A stretch of DNA of 63,997 nt, the filler included, from Diploschistes diacapsis (taxonomy: Eukaryota), in the NCBI GenBank assembly GCA_023645945.1. It is 6 parts of 6 records of this genome, joined end to end, with 100 filler letters (N's around TTAATTAATTAA, not from the genome) between each part and the next. Parts side by side here need not be neighbours in the genome. Positions count along the whole stretch, not along the records: positions 7,005 to 13,907 come from JALAIB010001339.1; 5 more parts are not named here. One strand, 5' to 3'. A program made the position numbers and the translations under genes. This document shows, one piece after another, positions 6,905 to 57,576 of this stretch. How positions within the stretch are numbered: position 1 is the stretch's first letter; every line of letters begins with the position of its first letter. Under the pieces are notes generated by a model. It saw nothing but the letters and a program-made list of their open reading frames with translations, was not told the DNA's origin and did not search any database.

Positions 6905-7004
6905 NNNNNNNNNNNNNNNNNNNNNNNNNNNNNNNNNNNNNNNNNNNNTTAATTAATTAANNNNNNNNNNNNNNNNNNNNNNNNNNNNNNNNNNNNNNNN
7001 NNNN
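6905..7004. other. Artificial contig-joining spacer
   Basis: N44-TTAATTAATTAA-N44, with stops in all six frames; the identical spacer occurs five times in the window. Confidence 0.97.
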
Positions 7005-7145
7005 TTTGTATAAGACTAAGTAGTCTCTTTACTTTTTCTTCATTTGGTATTATTAATAATTTAAAAACATGACTAACAAAATAACAAACAAAATAACTAC
7101 AGGCTACTATTTTATGTATTCTCCTACTCTACTTTTTTTACAACC
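7005..7145 (+). repeat. Left terminal inverted repeat (141 bp)
   Basis: TTTGTATAAGACTAAG...CTTTTTTTACAACC is the exact reverse complement of 13767-13907. The first mismatch is at 7146/13766. Confidence 0.95.
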
Positions 7146-9792
7146 CAAGCATCATAACTATTTCTCTGTTCAGAGTTCAAAACCAAGTAACAGACCTACT
7201 TTTATATCTAAACTTTTAGATAATCTTGAGGGTGGTAAATTAGAAAGTAATGAGCAAAGTCAAAGAAAAATTGAACAAACTACTATTGATGTTTTTGAAA
7301 CTAATTTTCTTGGTAACACTAAGGCTTATTTTGTTGGTGGTATAAACACACAATTATTAGGGTCTAAGTTAGCTCGTTATATCTTTGAGAGAGAAACCGA
7401 GATTATGTCTTATCTTAATAATTTTACAAAGCAGTTTAAAACTACTAGTAGTAAGAAAAGATATGCTGCTTTTATGAGTGAGATAATCAGAAATAGTGAT
7501 ATAAACTTTTTATACGGTTGTGTTGTTTTACTATATGTATTAGTTTACAATTATCAAAACACTGATGAAGAATCAAAATATTATCTTACACCTGTAGCTA
7601 TAGATATGGGTAAGAAAATAGTAAGAAAATATCTTAACACTTTAAGAAGTGAATATATAAAAGCTAACCAAAGCAAAACAGGTGTTTTAAGTTATTCTGA
7701 GTGATTTGAAATATGACAAACTAATAATCAGGCATATTATAATGTTCTAGATGATCCTTTATATTTGGAAATAGGTTGTAAAATTGTAGAAATATTAGAA
7801 CATACTAATATGATAGAGAAAGTATTGGTTCATACTTCGGATAAAAAGCATACACATATTCTAAAAATACAAGATGATATTATACGTAAAGATAATAGAT
7901 CCATTATTAAATTACCTAGCAAATTACCTATGATTGTAGAACCTAAAGATTATGCTGAGAATAAGTTGGGAGGTTATTTATTAAATAGTGTAAATTATAC
8001 AGAAAATTTGTTTATAGATAAAGTAGCTTATGGGACTGGATCAACAATATCTGAGGATAATAGTGTATACTCTATGGTTAACAATATGAATAAAACACCC
8101 TTTAAAATTAATATAGAATTATTAGATTTTATTAGATCTCATGGAGTTAAGCTGAATCTATTGACAGATCCTGATTATGTTCATCCATTTGCTGACCTTG
8201 AAAAAAAGACATTTTATCAAACAAAAGAATACACTTCTTATCAGAGTAAGCTTGTACTACAAGAAACTATATTAGATATAGCAGATTTCTACAGTAGATT
8301 TTCTCAAATATATATACCGGTTAGACTAGATCAAAGAGGTAGAGTATATTGTAGTCCTCAATATTTAAACTATCAGTCAAATGAACTATCAAAAGCTTTA
8401 TTACTTTTTGCAAATCCTGGTGTTTTAGTTAAGGGAAATCTAGACTCGGTTAAGTATTTAAAATCTTACGGTGCTAATTGTTACGGTGGTGAGCTAGGTA
8501 AATTAAGTGTTAATAATAAAGTAAAATGAGTGGATAATAATCTTCATAATATTATTAATTATAATAATGGTATTTTACTTAAAGAAGCTAAGGACAAATT
8601 ATTATTTCTCGCTTTTTGTATGGAATACAAACGATATAATGAATTTTTACACCAGGAAGAGATTATGGTTTTTCATACCTTTTTACCTGTTCAATTAGAT
8701 GCTACATGTAATGGTTTTCAACATATGGCATTGTTAAGTAATGAAGTTACGTTATTTAAGGAATTAAATCTTACTAGTATACATGATAAACATAATATAA
8801 TAGATACTAACAACATAGCACCAAATGACTTTTATAATTTCTTATTACATAAATTAATTACTTTATTTAAGGACAAAGTATCAAGTAATATTTTATATGA
8901 TGAACGTACAGGAGGTAGTTATGAAAGACTATCTAAATATATTTGACATAGAAGCAATGTAAAGAAAGCTATTATGACTATACCTTATAATACTTCTATT
9001 AGATCTATGAGAAAATATTTACGTGAAAGCTTAGCGGTGTTTGATTTGAGTAAATGTAAAGATGAAAAGTATGACAAAAGCCTTGTTTGATATGGTGATT
9101 CAAATAAAGAACTTTTACTTAATAACCACGATATTTCCTTATTGACTGATAGCCTATCTAATATAATTAAAAATGATTTCGAGAAAATTAAAAAGTTAAT
9201 TAGATATTTAAAGAATATAGCTACTTTACTAAATGTACTAGAATTACCTATTACATGAAATTTACCTAATGGTTTAGAAGTAAACCAGAGTTATTTAAAA
9301 ACTAAATCTACTTCTATCACACCTTTTATGTACAGCAAAACTAAAATTAATTTAAGAGTTACTATTAAAAATAAATATGATAAGAATAAACAAATCAGAG
9401 CTTTAATGCCTAATCTTATACATTCTCTTGACGGAAACTCTTTAAATTTACTATATAATAGATTCTTTGATGAATTTCAAGGTATACCTCCCTTTTACTC
9501 GGTACACGATTGTTTTGGTACTACTTTTGAAAAAGTGAATACATTAAAAACTCTTTTAGCTTCAGTTTATACGGATTTATATACAAATGATTCCTATATA
9601 CACGTATTTGACGAGTCAATAGTTAATACTATTAAAACTCATACTAATTATTATTTTGATGATACAACAAGAATTCTTAAGTTATCTGGAGATAATACAT
9701 ACGAACTACATGATGTACAATGAGTTGTTAACAATAAAGATGTTAAAGAATCAGTAGCAAAGAAAATTGATTCCCAAAATATACTAATTTAG
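7069..9792 (+). CDS. rpo: Plasmid-encoded single-subunit T3/T7-like DNA-directed RNA polymerase, 907 aa (genetic code 4)
   Basis: Track ORFs 7069, 7765, 8530 and 9328 share one frame, separated only by TGA codons (7702, 7714, 8527, 8944, 9088, 9256, 9721); true stop TAG 9790-9792. Motifs: LDQRGRVY, motif A QLDATCNGFQH, motif B RSNVKKAIMTIPYN, ITWNLPNGLEVNQSY, PNLIHSLDG, motif C SVHDCFGT. Confidence 0.95.
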
Positions 9793-9902
9793 TTTAAAAT
9801 TTAATTTCAAAAAAAAAAACAAAAAAAAAAAAAAACCCTATATATAAGCTATAATTAAACTTATAAGATAGGTAAAAAAAAACAACAAAAAACTGTTTTT
9901 AT

Positions 9903-9938
9903 GGAGTACTCTCTCAAAAAGAGTACTCCTTTTTTTTT
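9903..9938 (+). terminator. Stem-loop plus T-tract between the convergent plasmid genes (putative intrinsic terminator)
   Basis: 10-bp stem GGAGTACTCT (9903-9912) / AGAGTACTCC (9920-9929) with a 7-nt loop, followed by T9 (9930-9938). Upstream A-tracts would give T-runs on the minus strand. Confidence 0.6.
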
Positions 9939-9940
9939 GT

Positions 9941-12900
9941 CTAACATTTATCATCTGAACTTGACTCAGATTGGTTATTCTCTTTCTTTATGTTTTCTTT
10001 AACATATTCCTTACATCTAGGATCTATTTTATCTAAAAACTCTTCTTCTGTAGGACTTAACCTTTGTGATTTACTTGATTTATCTTCATTTTTATTATCT
10101 TCCTGCTGCTCCTCCCGGAGGGAGCTCTCAGATTCTGACTTTGAACCATGTAGTTGTGCGTTATTTTCTACAAACTTAACCATAACATCTGTCAGACCTG
10201 CGATTTTCCCAAGATTAAATGATAATTCATTTCTACATTCTTTAGCTTCTTTTATTTCTTTTAATTTAGTTTCATCTATTACGAGTGTAGGATCAGTTTG
10301 AGTAGAACTATCACTTTTACTTTCTTCTGTTGTTTGAGTAGAAGTATCAGATTTATTTTCTTCAGTTATTTGAGTAGAAGTAGAAGTATCAGTTTTACTT
10401 TCTAGAAGAGATTTGTAATAGTCAGGGTCATTTCAAGGATAATATGGTTTATCATCATCACTAGTGTAGTCTGGTCATACATAAACTTCTTTTATTTTAC
10501 CCACAGGGTGTAGCCCTAAGGGGGGTTCTAAGTGTTTTACTTCAGGATTGATTATATTGTTAGAATCTAAATCTTTATCTATTTGATAAAGATTATTTTC
10601 CTTATCATCAATTAACAATATAGGTAATAAAATTAATACTGCAATAAGAGATAGAATACATATATCTAAAATAATAGTGTAAATATTTCTTGTATCTATG
10701 TATACTCCAATAAATGATCCTAGTATATTTTTTGTTTTAAACAATTTAAAAATTGATCATTTACTGTTAGCTTGATCTGATGATGGTTTATCTACGTATT
10801 TTATAAGACTTTTATTATTGTCATAAACTACTAACCCTGTTTTTTCTATGTTATTAATAATAATAGGATAAGTATTTACTCAGTTGTTTGAGTTAGAGTA
10901 TAATTTAGTTCGCTTTTCATATTTATTAGTAATAACAATGTTTTTATCCTCAATAGACACAGAACCTTTCCCTCAATCTATTATACTTTCTTGTCTAGTT
11001 GTCTTAATATCATGACCCTGTAATAAAGATATAAATTGTTCGTGACGCAATAAGTTAGACTTCATACCTTTAGCCTTAATTAAATTCTTACCGTCTTTTA
11101 TTATTAGTGAGTATAATTTACCATTAATAAATATAGCTTTTTCTATTTCAAACTCCAACTTTAATTTACCTATTTCATTAGAACTTACTAAACTATCAAC
11201 TAGTTTAATATCAGTAACTATAGAGTCAGTATCAGAGTAATACAATTTACCTCCATTCTTTAAGATATCTAGTTTTAATTTACTAATATAGATTCTAGCA
11301 TAAGCTGTTATAGCAGCACTTATAGCTACAGATGCTACATTCATAGTACTTACTTCAGAATCACCAAATCTACTAGCAACTTTAGCAAAATCACCATTAA
11401 AATCTTTAACTAAATCATGATCTATACCAGGTATATAACTAGTTAAAATTTTATTATTAGATATTACTTTATAAGATAAAATTCTTTGAAAGAGACCTTT
11501 CGTATTAAAAGTACTAGTTGTTAGTATTTTTGTTACAGCTTTTTCTAAACCTATACCAAATCTACCTAATAAATTATTTAATAAGCTTTTAGCCATAGAT
11601 TTTTGTGTTTTACTTATAGGATTTGATTTAAAGTGATAAATCTTCTCTATGTATTCTTTGAATACATTTGAAACTCTATCAAAATTATAACCTTTTATAA
11701 CCTTTATTTTGTATCCATTTTCTTTAGCAAATTTTAATTCTTCACTAAAATACCAACCAAATCATTTACCTAAAGGAAATATTAAACCAGTATTATTTCT
11801 CACAGGTAACAAACCTAAGTAAGTATTTTCAATGGGTGTTTCTATTCTACAATAGAAAAACCCATATAAGCTATCAATATCGTACATGTCTGTATAGTAT
11901 TCAACTCTAACACAAGACAAACCTGGCATATCTTCTTTAGCTACATAAGGATAAAGTGAATTAACATCGTAATAGAATAGATCTTGTCCGTACGGTCTAT
12001 AAACTTCTGTTATACCTCCATAATAAGCTTGTCTAATATCTTTGTATAAACTAGATTTATTAATCATAGGTATGTTATTTTTATAATAATCCTTAAAAAA
12101 TATTGTTAATGCTAAACCAGAAATAGTTATACTATCAGACATATTAACATTATAATCTAAAAATATTTGCTTATTAGCTTTCATCAATACTTCATAAAGA
12201 CTATTTAAATCATTTATTAAATATTTAATAGTTTCCTCTTTGAAGGATCAATTATCTATTATAAGGTTTTTATAATCATCCATACTAATATTTTCATAGT
12301 AACTTATATTTGGTGTATTACCTGTGTAAAACAAATTGTCTACTAGACTGAATTTATATGGGAATACAGATTTTAATGTATCAACCTCAAAACTTTTACC
12401 TAATACTTCTAAACTGTCAGGTAGCATAGCATAACTATCTAAAATAGTTATTTTACCATTATCTTTACTGATAGTAACTTTAATAATTTTACTATCTCTA
12501 AGGATAGGATTTATTTTAAATTCTTTACCAGGATTACTATCGTTGAAATCATATAATATTTTAAGTATAAATATTATATCATAACCACTCATGTTATGGC
12601 AATAAAATGTTATATTATTGTATTTAGGTCTTATTAGTTCATTTATCATACGTAGTACTAATTCATTACTATTTAAATTATTATCATTAATATAATAAGT
12701 AACAGAGTTTTTATCTAAATTAGTTTTAAAACCTAAAGCATAAATTTTAGAAATATTATCTTTAGCTACATAAGTTTCTGTATCTATAACACCTATATTT
12801 TTATTCTCAATAAATAAAACTGGTTTATATGATTTTTCTACAGGTTTAAGAGCAATAGGTAGAGATATTTTTAAAACATTACTTCCAATCGACTCAATTA

Positions 12901-13843
12901 TTTTTCCTTTTGAGTGTCTAGTAATAGCATCACCTTGTACTATATCAACAACACTACTAATTAATACGCCACCTAAACTAAATCTGTATTTTTCAACAGT
13001 ATAATTATCTATAATATTTATAGCTAATACATAGCTAGTAACATCATGAACAAGATAAAATTTAAAACTGTCATTAAATCTTTCTATTCTGTCCTTGTGA
13101 TTTTTTCTTAGTAATTTACTTTTGTTAACAATTACCTGTAAAAAATTAATATTTCTATAATTCATAAATAAATTTATAGCCGTAATAAAACCTTGGTTAC
13201 TTTCAGTAACTAAAGATCTTCCTAATAGCTTTTCATTATTAGTATAAGGAATTTTAAAATCTTTTGATGAAGAATAATCTTTATGAGTCATTTGTTCAGG
13301 TTTTCTAAGCATTAATTCCTCTAACAATTTGGGTTCAACCATTCTGAATGTTATTTGTACATAATTGATATAATCGCTATCAAAGCCATATTCTACAAAA
13401 TACTCATCTAATCTTCTGTTAAGAATTTCTAATAATTCATTATGATTATGTTCGGTATATTTGTACCCAAATTGATTACCTAACAAAAAGAAGTTATTAG
13501 GACTATATCTTACTTTAACAAATACAATGTAATAACTATTATTTGTAAGCCCTTTTCTCAGTTTTTCAATAAAAGGAGTATGATCGTAATGAAGATCACT
13601 AATATTAAATAACATTATAATAGGCTGTAATTTAGGATGATAATAATCATGTGAAAGATCATCAAGAATACTGTTAGTATTGACTTCCATTTCTAAATCC
13701 TTATTATCAATAGAATTGTCATTATTTAACACGGTATCAACAGAATAATACTTAACAACACCAAAAGGTTGTAAAAAAAGTAGAGTAGGAGAATACATAA
13801 AATAGTAGCCTGTAGTTATTTTGTTTGTTATTTTGTTAGTCAT
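9941..13843 (-). CDS. dpo: Plasmid-encoded protein-primed family B DNA polymerase, 1300 aa (genetic code 4), with putative N-terminal terminal-protein domain and long C-terminal extension
   Basis: Track ORFs 13843-12248, 12187-11762, 11596-10973, 10744-10475 and 10183-9941 share one frame. Hand translation of the gaps finds only TGA (12248, 11762, 10973, 10880, 10757, 10475, 10433); stop TAG at 9941. Motifs: ExoI DTET (D354), ExoII HNMSGYD, ExoIII YLIND, YYGG, motif A YYDVNSLYP, motif B KSLLNNLLGRFG, TAYAR, motif C YSDTDS, KLY. Confidence 0.93.
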
Positions 13844-13907
13844 GTTTTTAAATTATTAATAATACCAAATGAAGAAAAAGTAAAGAGACTACTTAGTCTT
13901 ATACAAA
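13767..13907 (-). repeat. Right terminal inverted repeat (141 bp)
   Basis: Exact reverse complement of 7005-7145; contains the dpo start codon at 13843. Confidence 0.95.
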
Positions 13908-14007
13908 NNNNNNNNNNNNNNNNNNNNNNNNNNNNNNNNNNNNNNNNNNNNTTAATTAATTAANNNNNNNNNNNNNNNNNNNNNNNNNNNNNNNNNNNNN
14001 NNNNNNN
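13908..14007. other. Artificial contig-joining spacer
   Basis: N44-TTAATTAATTAA-N44. Confidence 0.97.
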
Positions 14008-43502: not shown

Positions 43503-43602
43503 NNNNNNNNNNNNNNNNNNNNNNNNNNNNNNNNNNNNNNNNNNNNTTAATTAATTAANNNNNNNNNNNNNNNNNNNNNNNNNNNNNNNNNNNNNNNNNN
43601 NN
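43503..43602. other. Artificial contig-joining spacer
   Basis: N44-TTAATTAATTAA-N44. Confidence 0.97.
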
Positions 43603-50494: not shown

Positions 50495-50594
50495 NNNNNN
50501 NNNNNNNNNNNNNNNNNNNNNNNNNNNNNNNNNNNNNNTTAATTAATTAANNNNNNNNNNNNNNNNNNNNNNNNNNNNNNNNNNNNNNNNNNNN
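50495..50594. other. Artificial contig-joining spacer
   Basis: N44-TTAATTAATTAA-N44. Confidence 0.97.
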
Positions 50595-57476: not shown

Positions 57477-57576
57477 NNNNNNNNNNNNNNNNNNNNNNNN
57501 NNNNNNNNNNNNNNNNNNNNTTAATTAATTAANNNNNNNNNNNNNNNNNNNNNNNNNNNNNNNNNNNNNNNNNNNN
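57477..57576. other. Artificial contig-joining spacer
   Basis: N44-TTAATTAATTAA-N44. Confidence 0.97.

What the first reader, a model, noticed from the sequence alone, without database searches (positions are those of the whole stretch)
9941..10858. DNA polymerase fused in frame to a ~305-aa tail with a transmembrane-like helix
Seen: the polymerase domain finishes with a typical KYEKRTKLY...WVNTYPII segment (about 10860), but the frame stays open under code 4 for about 305 more codons to TAG 9941. The tail has a 25-residue hydrophobic run IYTIILDICILSLIAVLILLPILLI (10684-10610), a Pro/Tyr/Trp patch (VWPDYTSDDDKPYYPWNDPDYY), Ser/Thr repeats and an acidic, charged end. There is no in-frame ATG between 10858 and 10183, so the TM segment is most simply made as part of the polymerase. 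A stop-free 0.9-kb frame in such AT-rich DNA suggests selection. Inference: a membrane-anchored protein-primed replicase (tethering to the inner membrane for segregation), or a cargo third ORF fused as a polyprotein. I do not recognise the tail as a known domain.
Basis: partly seen in the sequence, partly recalled or inferred. Interest (0 to 1): 0.8.

Follow-up and report, generated by a model that had tools for sequence, protein, structure and literature searches.

The report
Membrane-anchor tail on plasmid DNA polymerase
A 6.9-kb linear plasmid of a fungal mitochondrion encodes a DNA polymerase that continues, in the same reading frame, into a membrane-spanning helix and an acidic tail; nearly half of its closest relatives do the same, which suggests these selfish plasmids fasten their own replication enzyme to the mitochondrial inner membrane.

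Summary
Window 7005-13907 is a separate 6,903-bp contig with 26% GC. [quoted passage not shown] The polymerase frame (9941-13843, minus strand, code 4) runs 307 codons past the conserved end of the polymerase. This is not chance (P about 1.5e-10) and not an assembly slip: contigs from three studies agree, and one carries an in-frame 6-nt deletion. The tail has a linker, one hydrophobic helix (aa 1051-1078, AlphaFold pLDDT 84-96) and a 222-residue part with net charge -21 that includes a long helix. The tail sequence has no detectable relatives, but its architecture recurs. Of 108 homologues that reach the polymerase end, 48 carry a strongly hydrophobic segment, usually 25-65 residues downstream. 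In all 48 the flank before the helix is more positive than the flank after it. That predicts the polymerase in the matrix and the tail in the intermembrane space. The best reading is a self-encoded inner-membrane anchor for the replicase. Seven full-text searches found no description of it. Expression, membrane insertion and function are untested.

The parts
7005..13907 (.). Complete contig: invertron-type linear mitochondrial plasmid, 6,903 bp, 26% GC, set between spacers that join it to unrelated contigs of about 52% GC
   Evidence: Spacers at 6905-7004 and 13908-14007; GC values
7005..7145 (+). Left terminal inverted repeat, 141 nt, a perfect match to the right one; holds the first 26 codons of the RNA polymerase ORF
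   Evidence: 0 mismatches over 141 nt from the contig ends; identical N-termini MTNKITNKITTGYYFMYSPTLLFLQP
13767..13907 (-). Right terminal inverted repeat; holds the first 26 codons of the DNA polymerase ORF
7069..9792 (+). Single-subunit (T7/mitochondrial-type) RNA polymerase ORF, 907 aa, with 7 TGA=Trp codons
   Evidence: Pfam RNA_pol PF00940, E 1.2e-51
9903..9929 (.). Hairpin with a 12-bp stem between the two convergent genes, starting 11 nt after the polymerase stop and flanked by A and T runs; a likely 3'-end signal for both transcripts
   Evidence: sequence; -17.6 kcal/mol, z -5.1, 0 of 200 shuffles fold as well
9941..13843 (-). Whole ORF of the terminal-protein/DNA polymerase/tail protein, 1300 aa, table 4; 7 of its 8 Trp codons are TGA
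11285..12625 (-). Family B protein-primed DNA polymerase domain (aa 407-853, Pfam DNA_pol_B_2)
   Evidence: motif columns invariant across 36 sequences
10865..10882 (-). WVNTYP (aa 988-993), the last conserved motif of the polymerase (W..T.P in the family)
   Evidence: (W988 and P993 at 90% or more, T991 invariant)
10688..10864 (-). Linker, aa 994-1052, net charge +4. It starts with the conserved stretch IINNIEKTGLVVYDNNKSLIKY shared with the closest relatives. AlphaFold gives it low confidence
10610..10693 (-). Predicted transmembrane helix, aa 1051-1078 (TRNIYTIILDICILSLIAVLILLPILLI)
   Evidence: KD19 score 2.99; AlphaFold helix at model residues 192-219, pLDDT 84-96 in 10-residue blocks; coordinates
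9944..10609 (-). Post-helix tail, aa 1079-1300: 51 Asp+Glu against 30 Lys+Arg (net -21), mostly predicted disordered; predicted to face the intermembrane space
10415..10480 (-). Pro/Tyr/Trp/Asp patch VWPDYTSDDDKPYYPWNDPDYY (aa 1122-1143)
   Evidence: unchanged in the 98%-identical relative P0004
10296..10409 (-). Three 36-nt direct repeats encoding the Ser/Thr/Glu-rich units. One public contig ends here, and a 6-nt in-frame deletion was seen here in a second sample
   Evidence: D2; tables 4 and 8
10100..10273 (-). Predicted 58-residue alpha-helix (aa 1191-1248), a possible coiled coil
   Evidence: H332-389, block pLDDT 88-64
9971..10048 (-). C-terminal helices (aa 1266-1291), followed by an acidic Ser-rich end and a final Cys
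   Evidence: H407-412, H416-432, pLDDT about 72-74

Best explanation
The 307-codon tail is a real, translated C-terminal module of the plasmid's terminal-protein/DNA polymerase. It works as a single-pass anchor in the mitochondrial inner membrane. The protein is made on mitochondrial ribosomes in the matrix. The helix at aa 1051-1078 inserts into the inner membrane. The basic linker and the whole polymerase stay on the matrix side, and the acidic, partly helical 222-residue tail is exported to the intermembrane space. The replicase is thereby fixed to the membrane. The plasmid's 5' ends may be fixed too, either because the protein primer is the N-terminus of the same polypeptide or through binding between polymerase and primer. 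Membrane fixation would give a selfish plasmid of about 7 kb, which has no other genes, a place to replicate and a means of being retained and partitioned with the membrane. SHOWN: the frame is continuous in several samples; the tail has a coding signature; the helix is predicted; the helix and its charge polarity recur across the family; selection is purifying in a related plasmid pair; the tail goes with plasmid-sized contigs. INFERRED: translation, insertion, topology and the tethering role. I put about 0.85 on a real, selected membrane segment made as part of the polymerase ORF, and about 0.6 on the anchor-for-replication/maintenance function.
For: (1) The frame is real. P(open by chance) is 1.5e-10 and 0 of 20,000 shuffles stayed open. 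Codon-position GC and codon choice match the core.
(2) It is not an artefact. In run X1 (lichen metagenome) 362 of 368 laid contigs are 99% or more identical, and two of them span 10518-11009 with no difference. This run may be the source sample. In X2 (rock metagenome, another study) a 6,786-nt contig covers 10314-13907 with 38 substitutions, and its only coding indel is a 6-nt in-frame deletion. In X4 (air metagenome, a third study) one contig covers 10384-10599 with 2 substitutions and no gap.
(3) The architecture recurs. Of 121 aligned proteins, 108 reach the polymerase end and 60 of these have tails of 60 aa or more. Of the 60, 48 have a KD19 window of 2.0 or more, 8 score 1.6-2.0 and 4 are lower. 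The window usually lies 25-65 residues after the polymerase end. Among the same 60 proteins the roughly 1000-aa cores reach 2.0 in only 2.
(4) Charge polarity is uniform. The 15 residues before the helix average +2.4 and the 15 after average -3.8. The N-flank is more positive than the C-flank in 48 of 48, the C-flank is negative in 46 of 48, and the post-helix part is net negative in 41 of 48. By the positive-inside rule (established knowledge, recalled) this puts the polymerase in the matrix, the only place it can work.
(5) The trait is spread over most clades of a 106-sequence polymerase tree.
(6) Selection. In the related tailed pair L032/L037, dN/dS is 0.43 in the tail (11.5 synonymous and 23.5 non-synonymous changes, 1 gap codon) and 0.43 in the core. 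For the window against X2, among the 28 listed differences, the tail has 3 synonymous and 4 non-synonymous codons and the core has 3 and 16. Within-cluster variants of relatives keep the frame despite tail indels of 22-34 residues.
(7) In metagenome and viral-contig DNA read with table 4, hydrophobic tails occur in 9 of 38 loci on contigs of 13 kb or less and in 0 of 25 on longer contigs (Fisher P = 0.009; two of the nine are near-identical).
(8) AlphaFold2 predicts a confident 28-residue helix at the hydrophobic run and a 58-residue helix further on.
(9) A hairpin directly after the stop fits a transcript end there.
(10) Precedent: membrane anchoring of protein-primed replication is documented for phage phi29 through the separate membrane proteins p1 and p16.7 (PMC4974454, passages).
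Against: - No RNA or protein evidence exists.
- The anchor is not universal. 48 of 108 homologous proteins and 48 of 63 DNA loci (metagenome and viral contigs) read with table 4 stop within 60 residues of the polymerase end, so replication does not need it.
- The tail sequence is an orphan. phmmer against 1.84 billion representatives found only a 64-aa fragment identical to part of the query tail. A profile of the closest tail family scores it E = 0.055 in a one-sequence search, which is not significant.
- Tails evolve faster than cores in one cluster (5.5-6.5% against 1.7% differences in three of four comparisons).
- In L002 an in-frame stop sits just before the helix.
- The helix contains an Asp and a Pro.
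- Moving a 222-residue domain across the inner membrane is demanding.
- Helix detection used a hydropathy window and AlphaFold, not a dedicated topology predictor.
- Homologues are not independent samples.
Confidence: 0.6

Rival explanations
1. Fused third gene or polyprotein. The tail is an independent membrane protein whose job is not replication, for example acting on mitochondrial membranes, fusion, inheritance or host fitness. It is joined to the polymerase only for expression and is released by proteolysis or made separately.
For: - In L002 one in-frame stop separates the polymerase from an otherwise intact 300-codon tail of the closest tail family. In L016 a strongly hydrophobic 189-codon frame follows in another frame.
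- 11 of 44 short-tailed loci have a same-strand open stretch of 60 codons or more with KD19 of 2.0 or more, starting within 400 nt downstream. No chance control was run for this count.
- Tails fall into several sequence families that are unrelated by BLAST, as accessory modules do.
- Separate ORFs with transmembrane features are reported on or beside mitochondrial plasmids: the Physarum mF plasmid, which also has a mitochondrial-fusion phenotype (PMC10048350, passages), and Heterobasidion plasmid-like ORFs (PMC4201751 and PMC10234125, passages).
- The terminal protein is itself encoded in the N-terminus of the polymerase gene in Pleurotus (title seen in a reference list), so one ORF giving several products has a precedent.
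Against: - The helix always follows the polymerase closely, and its charge polarity fits a matrix-side polymerase. A merely co-expressed cargo would not need that.
- There is no ATG between the polymerase end and aa 1221.
- No cleavage motif is known.
- The fused form is kept in many independent variants.
Confidence: 0.22
2. Tolerated junk. The stop codon after the polymerase was lost and the frame reads into non-functional, fast-drifting low-complexity sequence. The hydrophobic run is a by-product of AT-rich codons (Ile, Leu, Phe).
For: - The tail is an orphan by sequence.
- It contains repeats and low-complexity acidic and Ser/Thr stretches.
- Tails evolve faster than cores in cluster 2.
- Accidental fusions of plasmid polymerase fragments to membrane-like frames do occur in mitochondrial genomes (earlier scan note e1-2936234, unchecked).
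Against: - P(open) is 1.5e-10, and the coding-type codon-position bias is kept.
- Cores made of the same AT-rich codons almost never reach KD19 of 2.0 (2 of 60), while 48 of 60 tails do.
- Charge polarity is uniform in 48 of 48.
- dN/dS is 0.43 in a related pair.
- Indels stay in frame.
Confidence: 0.08
3. Assembly or sequencing artefact, or wrong genetic code. A missed indel or stop near 10860-10750 joins two frames, or the element is not read with TGA=Trp.
For: The contig comes from a draft assembly. One public contig breaks in the 36-nt repeats.
Against: - Contigs from three studies are collinear across the junction or the tail, with no frameshift.
- TGA encodes 7 of 8 Trp in this ORF and 7 of 7 in the RNA polymerase ORF.
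- TGA sits at W532, W694 and W988, which are Trp in 90% or more of 36 aligned polymerases.
Confidence: 0.03

Closest known systems
Invertron-type linear mitochondrial plasmids of fungi (e.g. kalilo, maranhar, pAL2-1, pClK1, pMLP1; names recalled, sequences not examined here; class as described in PMC9925561, passages)
   Same: Terminal inverted repeats. [quoted passage not shown] AT-rich, mitochondrial code, ORFs that start inside the repeats.
   Different: I found no account of a membrane-spanning C-terminal module on the polymerase. A 2023 survey of 95 complete elements annotates domains and does not use the word membrane in its text or in its held supplement. Whether the classical plasmids carry the tail was not tested.
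Public 'DNA polymerase type B' records: Leptogium hirsutum YP_009379212.1 (P0086, 1172 aa) and Coniothyrium glycines YP_009543519.1 (P0017, 1407 aa)
   Same: Homologous polymerases: 43% and 58% identity over aa 400-1000. Both have long C-terminal tails. P0086 has a hydrophobic segment (KD19 2.72) 65 residues after the polymerase end, with a -6 flank after it. P0017 has a weaker one (1.79).
   Different: They are annotated only as DNA polymerase. Their tail sequences are not alignable with this one. At least P0086 lies on contigs of about 49 kb, so it is probably integrated in a mitochondrial genome.
Phage phi29 membrane organisers p1 and p16.7 (PMC4974454, passages)
   Same: This is also protein-primed replication of a linear DNA by a family B polymerase. 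The replication machinery is tied to a membrane through a virus-encoded membrane protein that contacts the terminal protein.
   Different: In phi29 the anchors are separate small proteins with no sequence relation to this tail. Here the anchor is part of the polymerase polypeptide itself. This is a likeness of function, not membership.
Physarum polycephalum mF linear mitochondrial plasmid (PMC10048350, passages)
   Same: A linear mitochondrial plasmid with inverted repeats and DNA and RNA polymerase-like ORFs. It also encodes proteins with transmembrane features and is linked to a mitochondrial-fusion phenotype.
   Different: It is 14.5 kb with nine ORFs, and the membrane proteins are separate ORFs. 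No sequence comparison was done here.
Export of the acidic C-terminal domain of mitochondrially encoded Cox2 by Oxa1/Cox18 (textbook knowledge, recalled; no call)
   Same: A protein made in the matrix with a membrane helix followed by an acidic domain that is moved to the intermembrane space. This is the route proposed for the tail.
   Different: Cox2 is a respiratory subunit with a folded copper domain. There is no homology. The tail here is longer and mostly disordered.

Membership tests
Invertron-type linear mitochondrial plasmid | Terminal inverted repeats at both ends of a linear molecule | tested here: met
   A perfect 141-nt inverted repeat runs from both contig ends. Whether the assembly reaches the true ends is unknown.
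Invertron-type linear mitochondrial plasmid | [quoted passage not shown] | tested here: met
   PF03175, E 1.9e-94, aa 407-853, preceded by about 400 residues. The catalytic motifs YxDTDS and KxY are invariant in the alignment.
Invertron-type linear mitochondrial plasmid | Single-subunit phage-type RNA polymerase in inverted orientation | tested here: met
   PF00940, E 1.2e-51. The ORF 7069-9792 (+) converges on the polymerase ORF.
Invertron-type linear mitochondrial plasmid | Mitochondrial genetic code (TGA = Trp) and AT-rich composition | tested here: met
   14 of 15 Trp codons are TGA. TGA lies at conserved Trp columns. GC is 26%.
Invertron-type linear mitochondrial plasmid | Protein covalently bound to the 5' ends; location in mitochondria | not testable with these tools
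   This needs biochemistry on the host.
Tailed subgroup of plasmid PolB (unnamed; defined here) | Hydrophobic helix of about 20-28 residues shortly after the W..T.P end of the polymerase | tested here: met
   The helix is at tail positions 58-85 (aa 1051-1078). 48 of 108 homologues share the feature.
Tailed subgroup of plasmid PolB (unnamed; defined here) | Basic flank before the helix and acidic flank after it | tested here: met
   The query has +1 before and -4 after, with -21 for the rest of the tail. The N-flank is more positive than the C-flank in 48 of 48.
Tailed subgroup of plasmid PolB (unnamed; defined here) | Sequence homology of the post-helix part to another tail family (e.g. the FSPNTL...ERKYLLEQK coiled-coil end of the closest relatives) | tested here: not met
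   BLAST of tails finds only P0004. The profile of nine related tails scores E = 0.055, which is not significant, and the query lacks their last 90 or so profile positions.
phi29-type membrane organisers (p1, p16.7) | Separate small membrane protein that binds the terminal protein and DNA | tested here: not met
   Here the membrane segment is part of the polymerase ORF. No sequence comparison with p1 or p16.7 themselves was run. The tail matched no Pfam family and its only sequence hit was a 64-aa fragment 100% identical to part of the query tail. Binding was not tested. This is a functional analogy only.
Any Pfam family for the tail | Significant match to a curated domain model | tested here: not met
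   No family other than PF03175 matched in P0001 at E up to 0.1. None matched in the tails of 12 long-tailed homologues at E up to 0.01.

The most novel reading that the evidence does not exclude
The polypeptide is not cleaved. The molecule that primes each strand stays covalently bound to the plasmid's 5' end and is at the same time embedded in the inner membrane. Both plasmid ends would then be chemically tethered to the membrane. The exported helical, acidic tail would reach intermembrane-space or outer-membrane partners and couple plasmid copies to membrane dynamics such as cristae, fission, fusion and transmission through hyphal fusions. This would be a one-protein replication-plus-partition system for an organellar selfish element, spanning the inner membrane.
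Probability: 0.15. Interest if true: 0.85.

Novelty: new variant of a known kind. Interest (0 to 1): 0.6.

Why it matters
It is unclear how linear mitochondrial plasmids, which carry only two genes, are retained, partitioned and spread, or why some of them are so invasive or cause senescence. A membrane anchor conserved on the replicase itself gives that question a concrete, testable handle. The tests would be fractionation, topology mapping, the size of the terminal protein, and comparison of tailed and tailless plasmids. The finding also shows that public records labelled simply 'DNA polymerase' hide a recurrent membrane module, and that reading these genes with the wrong code or cutting them at the Pfam domain loses it. 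It would be a fused, eukaryotic-organelle counterpart of the membrane-organised protein-primed replication known from phage phi29.

Tried and rejected
- Tail as a phmmer query against 1.84 billion representatives: one hit, a 64-aa fragment 100% identical to part of the query tail.
- Word-index search scored on aa 990-1300: only P0004 among 6,795 candidates.
- Profile of nine related tails against the query tail: not significant.
- Pfam on the query and on 12 long-tailed homologues: no tail domain.
- ESM Atlas look-up: the first call failed on stop codons because I gave no code. I dropped this step.
- Whole-genome search: no genome is held for this window.
- Expression: no RNA holder was listed among the sequencing runs, so expression is simply unknown.
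- tRNA genes on the plasmid: none.
- dN/dS in four distant tailed pairs: saturated (dS about 1) and the tails are poorly alignable, so they are not used. L018/L019 are near-identical and uninformative.
- dN/dS for the window against X2 is only partial. 28 of the 38 substitutions of that contig were listed.
- P0004 at first looked like a shorter tail (1171 aa), but it ends at the end of its contig, not at a stop.
- The antisense ORF 9990-10418 (+) is a Ser/Leu-rich mirror of the acidic tail, and I judged it spurious.
- The Griffiths 1995 review could not be read by either id because it is not held. Older subscription papers on the classical plasmids are not searchable, so an early remark on a hydrophobic C-terminus cannot be excluded.
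- Earlier notes of this scan: none on this genome or sequence.
- I ran no complex prediction and no fold search, because the tail is mostly predicted disordered.
Full report
WHAT THE WINDOW IS

The 63,997-base window is not one molecule. It is six contigs joined by spacers of the form N...TTAATTAATTAA...N. The finding lies in the second contig, 7005-13907. That contig is 6,903 bp with 26% GC, while its neighbours have 52-54% GC. Its two ends are a perfect 141-nt inverted repeat.

The contig carries two convergent ORFs under table 4:
- 7069-9792 (+), 907 aa, Pfam RNA_pol, E 1.2e-51.
- 9941-13843 (-), 1300 aa, Pfam DNA_pol_B_2, E 1.9e-94 at aa 407-853.

Both ORFs start inside the inverted repeat and share their first 26 residues.

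TGA encodes 14 of the 15 Trp codons of the two ORFs. In the polymerase, TGA sits at W532, W694 and W988, columns that are Trp in 90% or more of 36 aligned homologues. The mitochondrial code is therefore the right one. This is a complete or nearly complete invertron-type linear mitochondrial plasmid. Its nearly identical DNA occurs in lichen, rock and air metagenomes, so the host is probably a lichen-associated or rock-dwelling ascomycete. No whole genome is held for this window.

CHECKING THE OBSERVATION

- The last conserved motif of the polymerase family is W..T.P. Here it is WVNTYP, aa 988-993 (nt 10865-10882).
- The frame then runs 307 more codons to TAG at 9941-9943.
- The hydrophobic run is aa 1054-1078 (nt 10610-10684). 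It is the top hydropathy window of the protein (2.99). The best window outside it scores 1.42.
- The only Met in the tail is aa 1221.

The open frame is not chance. From the tail's own base composition P is 1.5e-10. None of 20,000 shuffles stayed open. The five other frames hold 9-36 stops. The tail also looks like coding sequence of this gene. GC falls from codon position 1 to 3 as it does in the core. Synonymous codon choice correlates with the core at r = 0.87, against 0.64-0.68 for the wrong frames.

A hairpin with a 12-bp stem (-17.6 kcal/mol, z -5.1) starts 11 nt after the stop. It lies between A and T runs, where a shared 3'-end signal of the two convergent genes would be expected.

IS THE JUNCTION REAL?

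Only assembled contigs of public runs could be laid on the plasmid, not raw reads.
- Run X1 (lichen metagenome): 362 of 368 laid contigs are 99% or more identical. Two contigs span 10518-10817 and 10788-11009 without a difference. This run may be the source of the assembly, so it is weak support.
- Run X2 (rock metagenome, another study): a 6,786-nt contig covers 10314-13907 with 38 substitutions. Its only indel inside the ORF is a 6-nt in-frame deletion in the Ser/Thr repeats.
- Run X4 (air metagenome, a third study): a 216-nt contig covers 10384-10599 with two substitutions and no gap.

The X2 contig encodes P0004, which is 1146 of 1173 residues identical to the query. P0004 stops at 1171 aa only because its contig ends in the 36-nt repeats.

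Among the 28 listed X2 differences, the tail has 3 synonymous and 4 non-synonymous codon changes, and the core has 3 and 16. Ten further substitutions of that contig were not listed. As far as this can be seen, the tail is at least as constrained as the core.

WHAT THE TAIL LOOKS LIKE
- aa 994-1052: a linker with net charge +4. It begins IINNIEKTGLVVYDNNKSLIKY, which is shared with the closest relatives. AlphaFold gives it low confidence.
- aa 1051-1078: a helix, with pLDDT 84-96 in 10-residue blocks.
- aa 1079-1300: 51 acidic and 30 basic residues (net -21). This part is mostly disordered and includes the Pro/Tyr/Trp patch and the Ser/Thr repeats.
- aa 1191-1248: a 58-residue helix within that part (pLDDT 88 falling to 64).
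- aa 1266-1291: two short helices.

The model covered aa 860-1300 and used a 39-sequence alignment (mean pLDDT 63).

No Pfam family matches the tail. phmmer against 1.84 billion representatives found only a 64-aa fragment 100% identical to part of the query tail. A word-index search scored on aa 990-1300 found only P0004.

A search with aa 400-1000 gave 729 proteins at E of 1e-10 or better among 7,997 scored candidates. The best 120 were listed. I aligned them with the query, 121 sequences in all.
- 108 reach the polymerase end.
- 60 of the 108 have 60 residues or more beyond it.
- 48 of the 60 hold a 19-residue window with mean hydropathy of 2.0 or more, 8 score 1.6-2.0 and 4 are lower.
- The window usually starts 25-65 residues after the polymerase end.
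- The roughly 1000-residue cores of the same 60 proteins reach 2.0 in only 2 cases.

These counts include the query and P0004.

The flanks are polar in one direction. The 15 residues before the helix average +2.4 and the 15 after average -3.8. The first flank is more positive than the second in 48 of 48. The second is negative in 46 of 48. The remainder of the tail is net negative in 41 of 48. The boundaries were set at the nearest charged residue on either side, which does not fix the sign.

On a FastTree of 106 cores, tailed proteins occur in most clades, mixed with short ones. Two clades are entirely short.

The tails themselves fall into several BLAST-unrelated families. The family nearest to the query by polymerase similarity ends in a conserved FSPNTL...ERKYLLEQK helical block. 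The query lacks that block, and a profile of those tails does not score the query significantly (E = 0.055 in a one-sequence search). What is conserved is the architecture, not the sequence.

Two named public records belong to the set: Leptogium hirsutum YP_009379212.1 and Coniothyrium glycines YP_009543519.1. Both are annotated only as DNA polymerase.

A SECOND SURVEY, ON DNA READ WITH TABLE 4

Protein calls may be cut at TGA codons, so I repeated the survey on DNA. I took 79 metagenome loci and the 4 closest loci from viral contigs.
- 65 of the 83 loci contained the polymerase end.
- I dropped two duplicates (L080 = L039, L081 = L016), which left 63.
- 48 of the 63 stop within 60 codons at a real TAA or TAG.
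- 8 have a strongly hydrophobic tail, 3 a weaker one and 4 none.

So the tail is frequent among the query's closest relatives and a minority feature further out.

With a slightly looser rule (score of 1.85 or more within 130 residues), tailed genes make up 9 of 38 loci on contigs of 13 kb or less and 0 of 25 on longer contigs (Fisher P = 0.009). Two of the nine, L018 and L019, differ by one synonymous change. This fits a feature of free plasmids that is lost or absent in integrated copies, but short contigs are not proof of free plasmids.

In the tailed pair L032/L037, dN/dS is 0.43 for both the core and the tail. The tail has 11.5 synonymous and 23.5 non-synonymous changes over 253 codons, with one gap codon. 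More distant pairs are saturated.

Within 90% clusters, full-length variants keep the frame through tail indels of 22-34 residues. In three of four comparisons in cluster 2 the tails differ 5.5-6.5% and the cores 1.7%.

EVIDENCE THAT THE MODULE CAN STAND APART

- In L002 (52% identical polymerase) a single in-frame stop lies just before the helix, and a 300-codon tail of the nearest family follows.
- In L016 a 189-codon frame with a very hydrophobic segment follows in another frame.
- 11 of 44 short-tailed loci have a same-strand hydrophobic open stretch starting within 400 nt. No chance control was run for this count.

These cases may be errors, decay or true separate genes. Earlier unchecked notes of this scan on other genomes mention separate small membrane-protein genes linked to plasmid-type polymerases in mushroom mitochondria.

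HOW IT MOST LIKELY WORKS

The protein is made in the matrix. A hydrophobic helix with a basic flank before it and an acidic flank after it should insert with the basic side in the matrix. This follows the positive-inside rule and the known export of acidic tails such as that of Cox2 by Oxa1/Cox18 (established knowledge, recalled). The polymerase would then be in the matrix, where its template is, and the acidic helical tail in the intermembrane space. The polarity could have pointed the other way, and in 48 of 48 cases it does not.

I therefore read the tail as a self-encoded inner-membrane anchor of the replicase. By analogy with phage phi29, where the separate membrane proteins p1 and p16.7 tie the terminal protein and the DNA to the membrane (PMC4974454, passages), it would organise replication at the membrane and help retention and partition.

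Steps shown: the frame, the coding signature, the predicted helix, the recurrence, the polarity, purifying selection in a relative, and the association with plasmid-sized contigs. Steps inferred: translation, insertion, topology and function.

The main rival is that the module is an independent membrane protein, fused for expression, with a role in membrane behaviour. The Physarum mF plasmid has separate membrane ORFs and a mitochondrial-fusion phenotype (PMC10048350, passages). The two readings are not exclusive.

IS IT KNOWN?

Seven full-text searches were run. Six combined linear or mitochondrial plasmid, DNA polymerase, dpo, polB or pPolB terms with transmembrane, hydrophobic, C-terminal extension or membrane-anchor terms. 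One concerned phi29. None found a paper that describes a membrane segment on a plasmid-type DNA polymerase.

I read passages from the likeliest hits:
- PMC11528492, PMC4201751, PMC3318907 and PMC10234125 speak of other ORFs.
- PMC10234125 says its DPO1 lacks transmembrane regions.
- The 2023 survey of 95 complete plasmids (PMC10583447) does not use the word membrane in its text or in its held supplement.

The 1995 review by Griffiths is not held, and the original papers on the classical plasmids are not searchable. An early remark cannot be ruled out, and I did not examine those plasmids' sequences.

VERDICT

The polymerase-linked membrane module is a recurrent, selected and apparently undescribed variant of that kind, with a clear and testable mechanistic reading. 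Interest 0.6.

Noticed in passing
window 6905-7004, 13908-14007, 43503-43602, 50495-50594, 57477-57576: The window is six separate contigs (6904, 6903, 29495, 6892, 6882 and 6421+ bp) joined by N...TTAATTAATTAA...N spacers. Neighbouring sequence is therefore not genomic context for the plasmid.
   Followed up: yes
window 7069-7146 and 13766-13843: Both polymerase ORFs start inside the terminal inverted repeat and share an identical 26-residue N-terminus (MTNKITNKITTGYYFMYSPTLLFLQP), with a tandem NKIT.
   Followed up: partly
window 9903-9929: A hairpin with a 12-bp stem (-17.6 kcal/mol, z -5.1) lies between the two convergent stop codons, flanked by long A and T runs. It is a possible shared 3'-end or termination signal.
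   Followed up: partly
window 9990-10418 (+): A 142-codon antisense ORF overlaps the acidic tail. Its product is Ser/Leu-rich low complexity, so it is most likely a mirror effect of the GAA/GAT-rich coding strand.
   Followed up: partly
run X2 contig (record 14) against window 10314-13907: The 6,786-nt public contig matches the DNA polymerase half at about 99%. Either that plasmid carries a different RNA polymerase module (recombination between plasmids) or it is joined to other DNA beyond the repeat.
   Followed up: no
L002:6268-7170: In a metagenome relative (52% identical polymerase) a single in-frame stop lies immediately before the hydrophobic helix, and an otherwise intact 300-codon tail follows. 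This could be a sequencing error, decay, or a way to make both soluble and anchored forms.
   Followed up: partly
P0005, P0006, P0007, P0009, P0013, P0039, P0047, P0048, P0061 tails; L002: The closest tail family ends in a conserved helical block of about 90 residues (FSPNTL..LDEEI..N...ERKYLLEQKSKHL...). It has no Pfam match, and the query lacks it.
   Followed up: partly
P0030 and P0035 (N-terminal residues 13-72): Two homologous polymerases have strongly hydrophobic segments at the N-terminus rather than, or as well as, after the polymerase.
   Followed up: no
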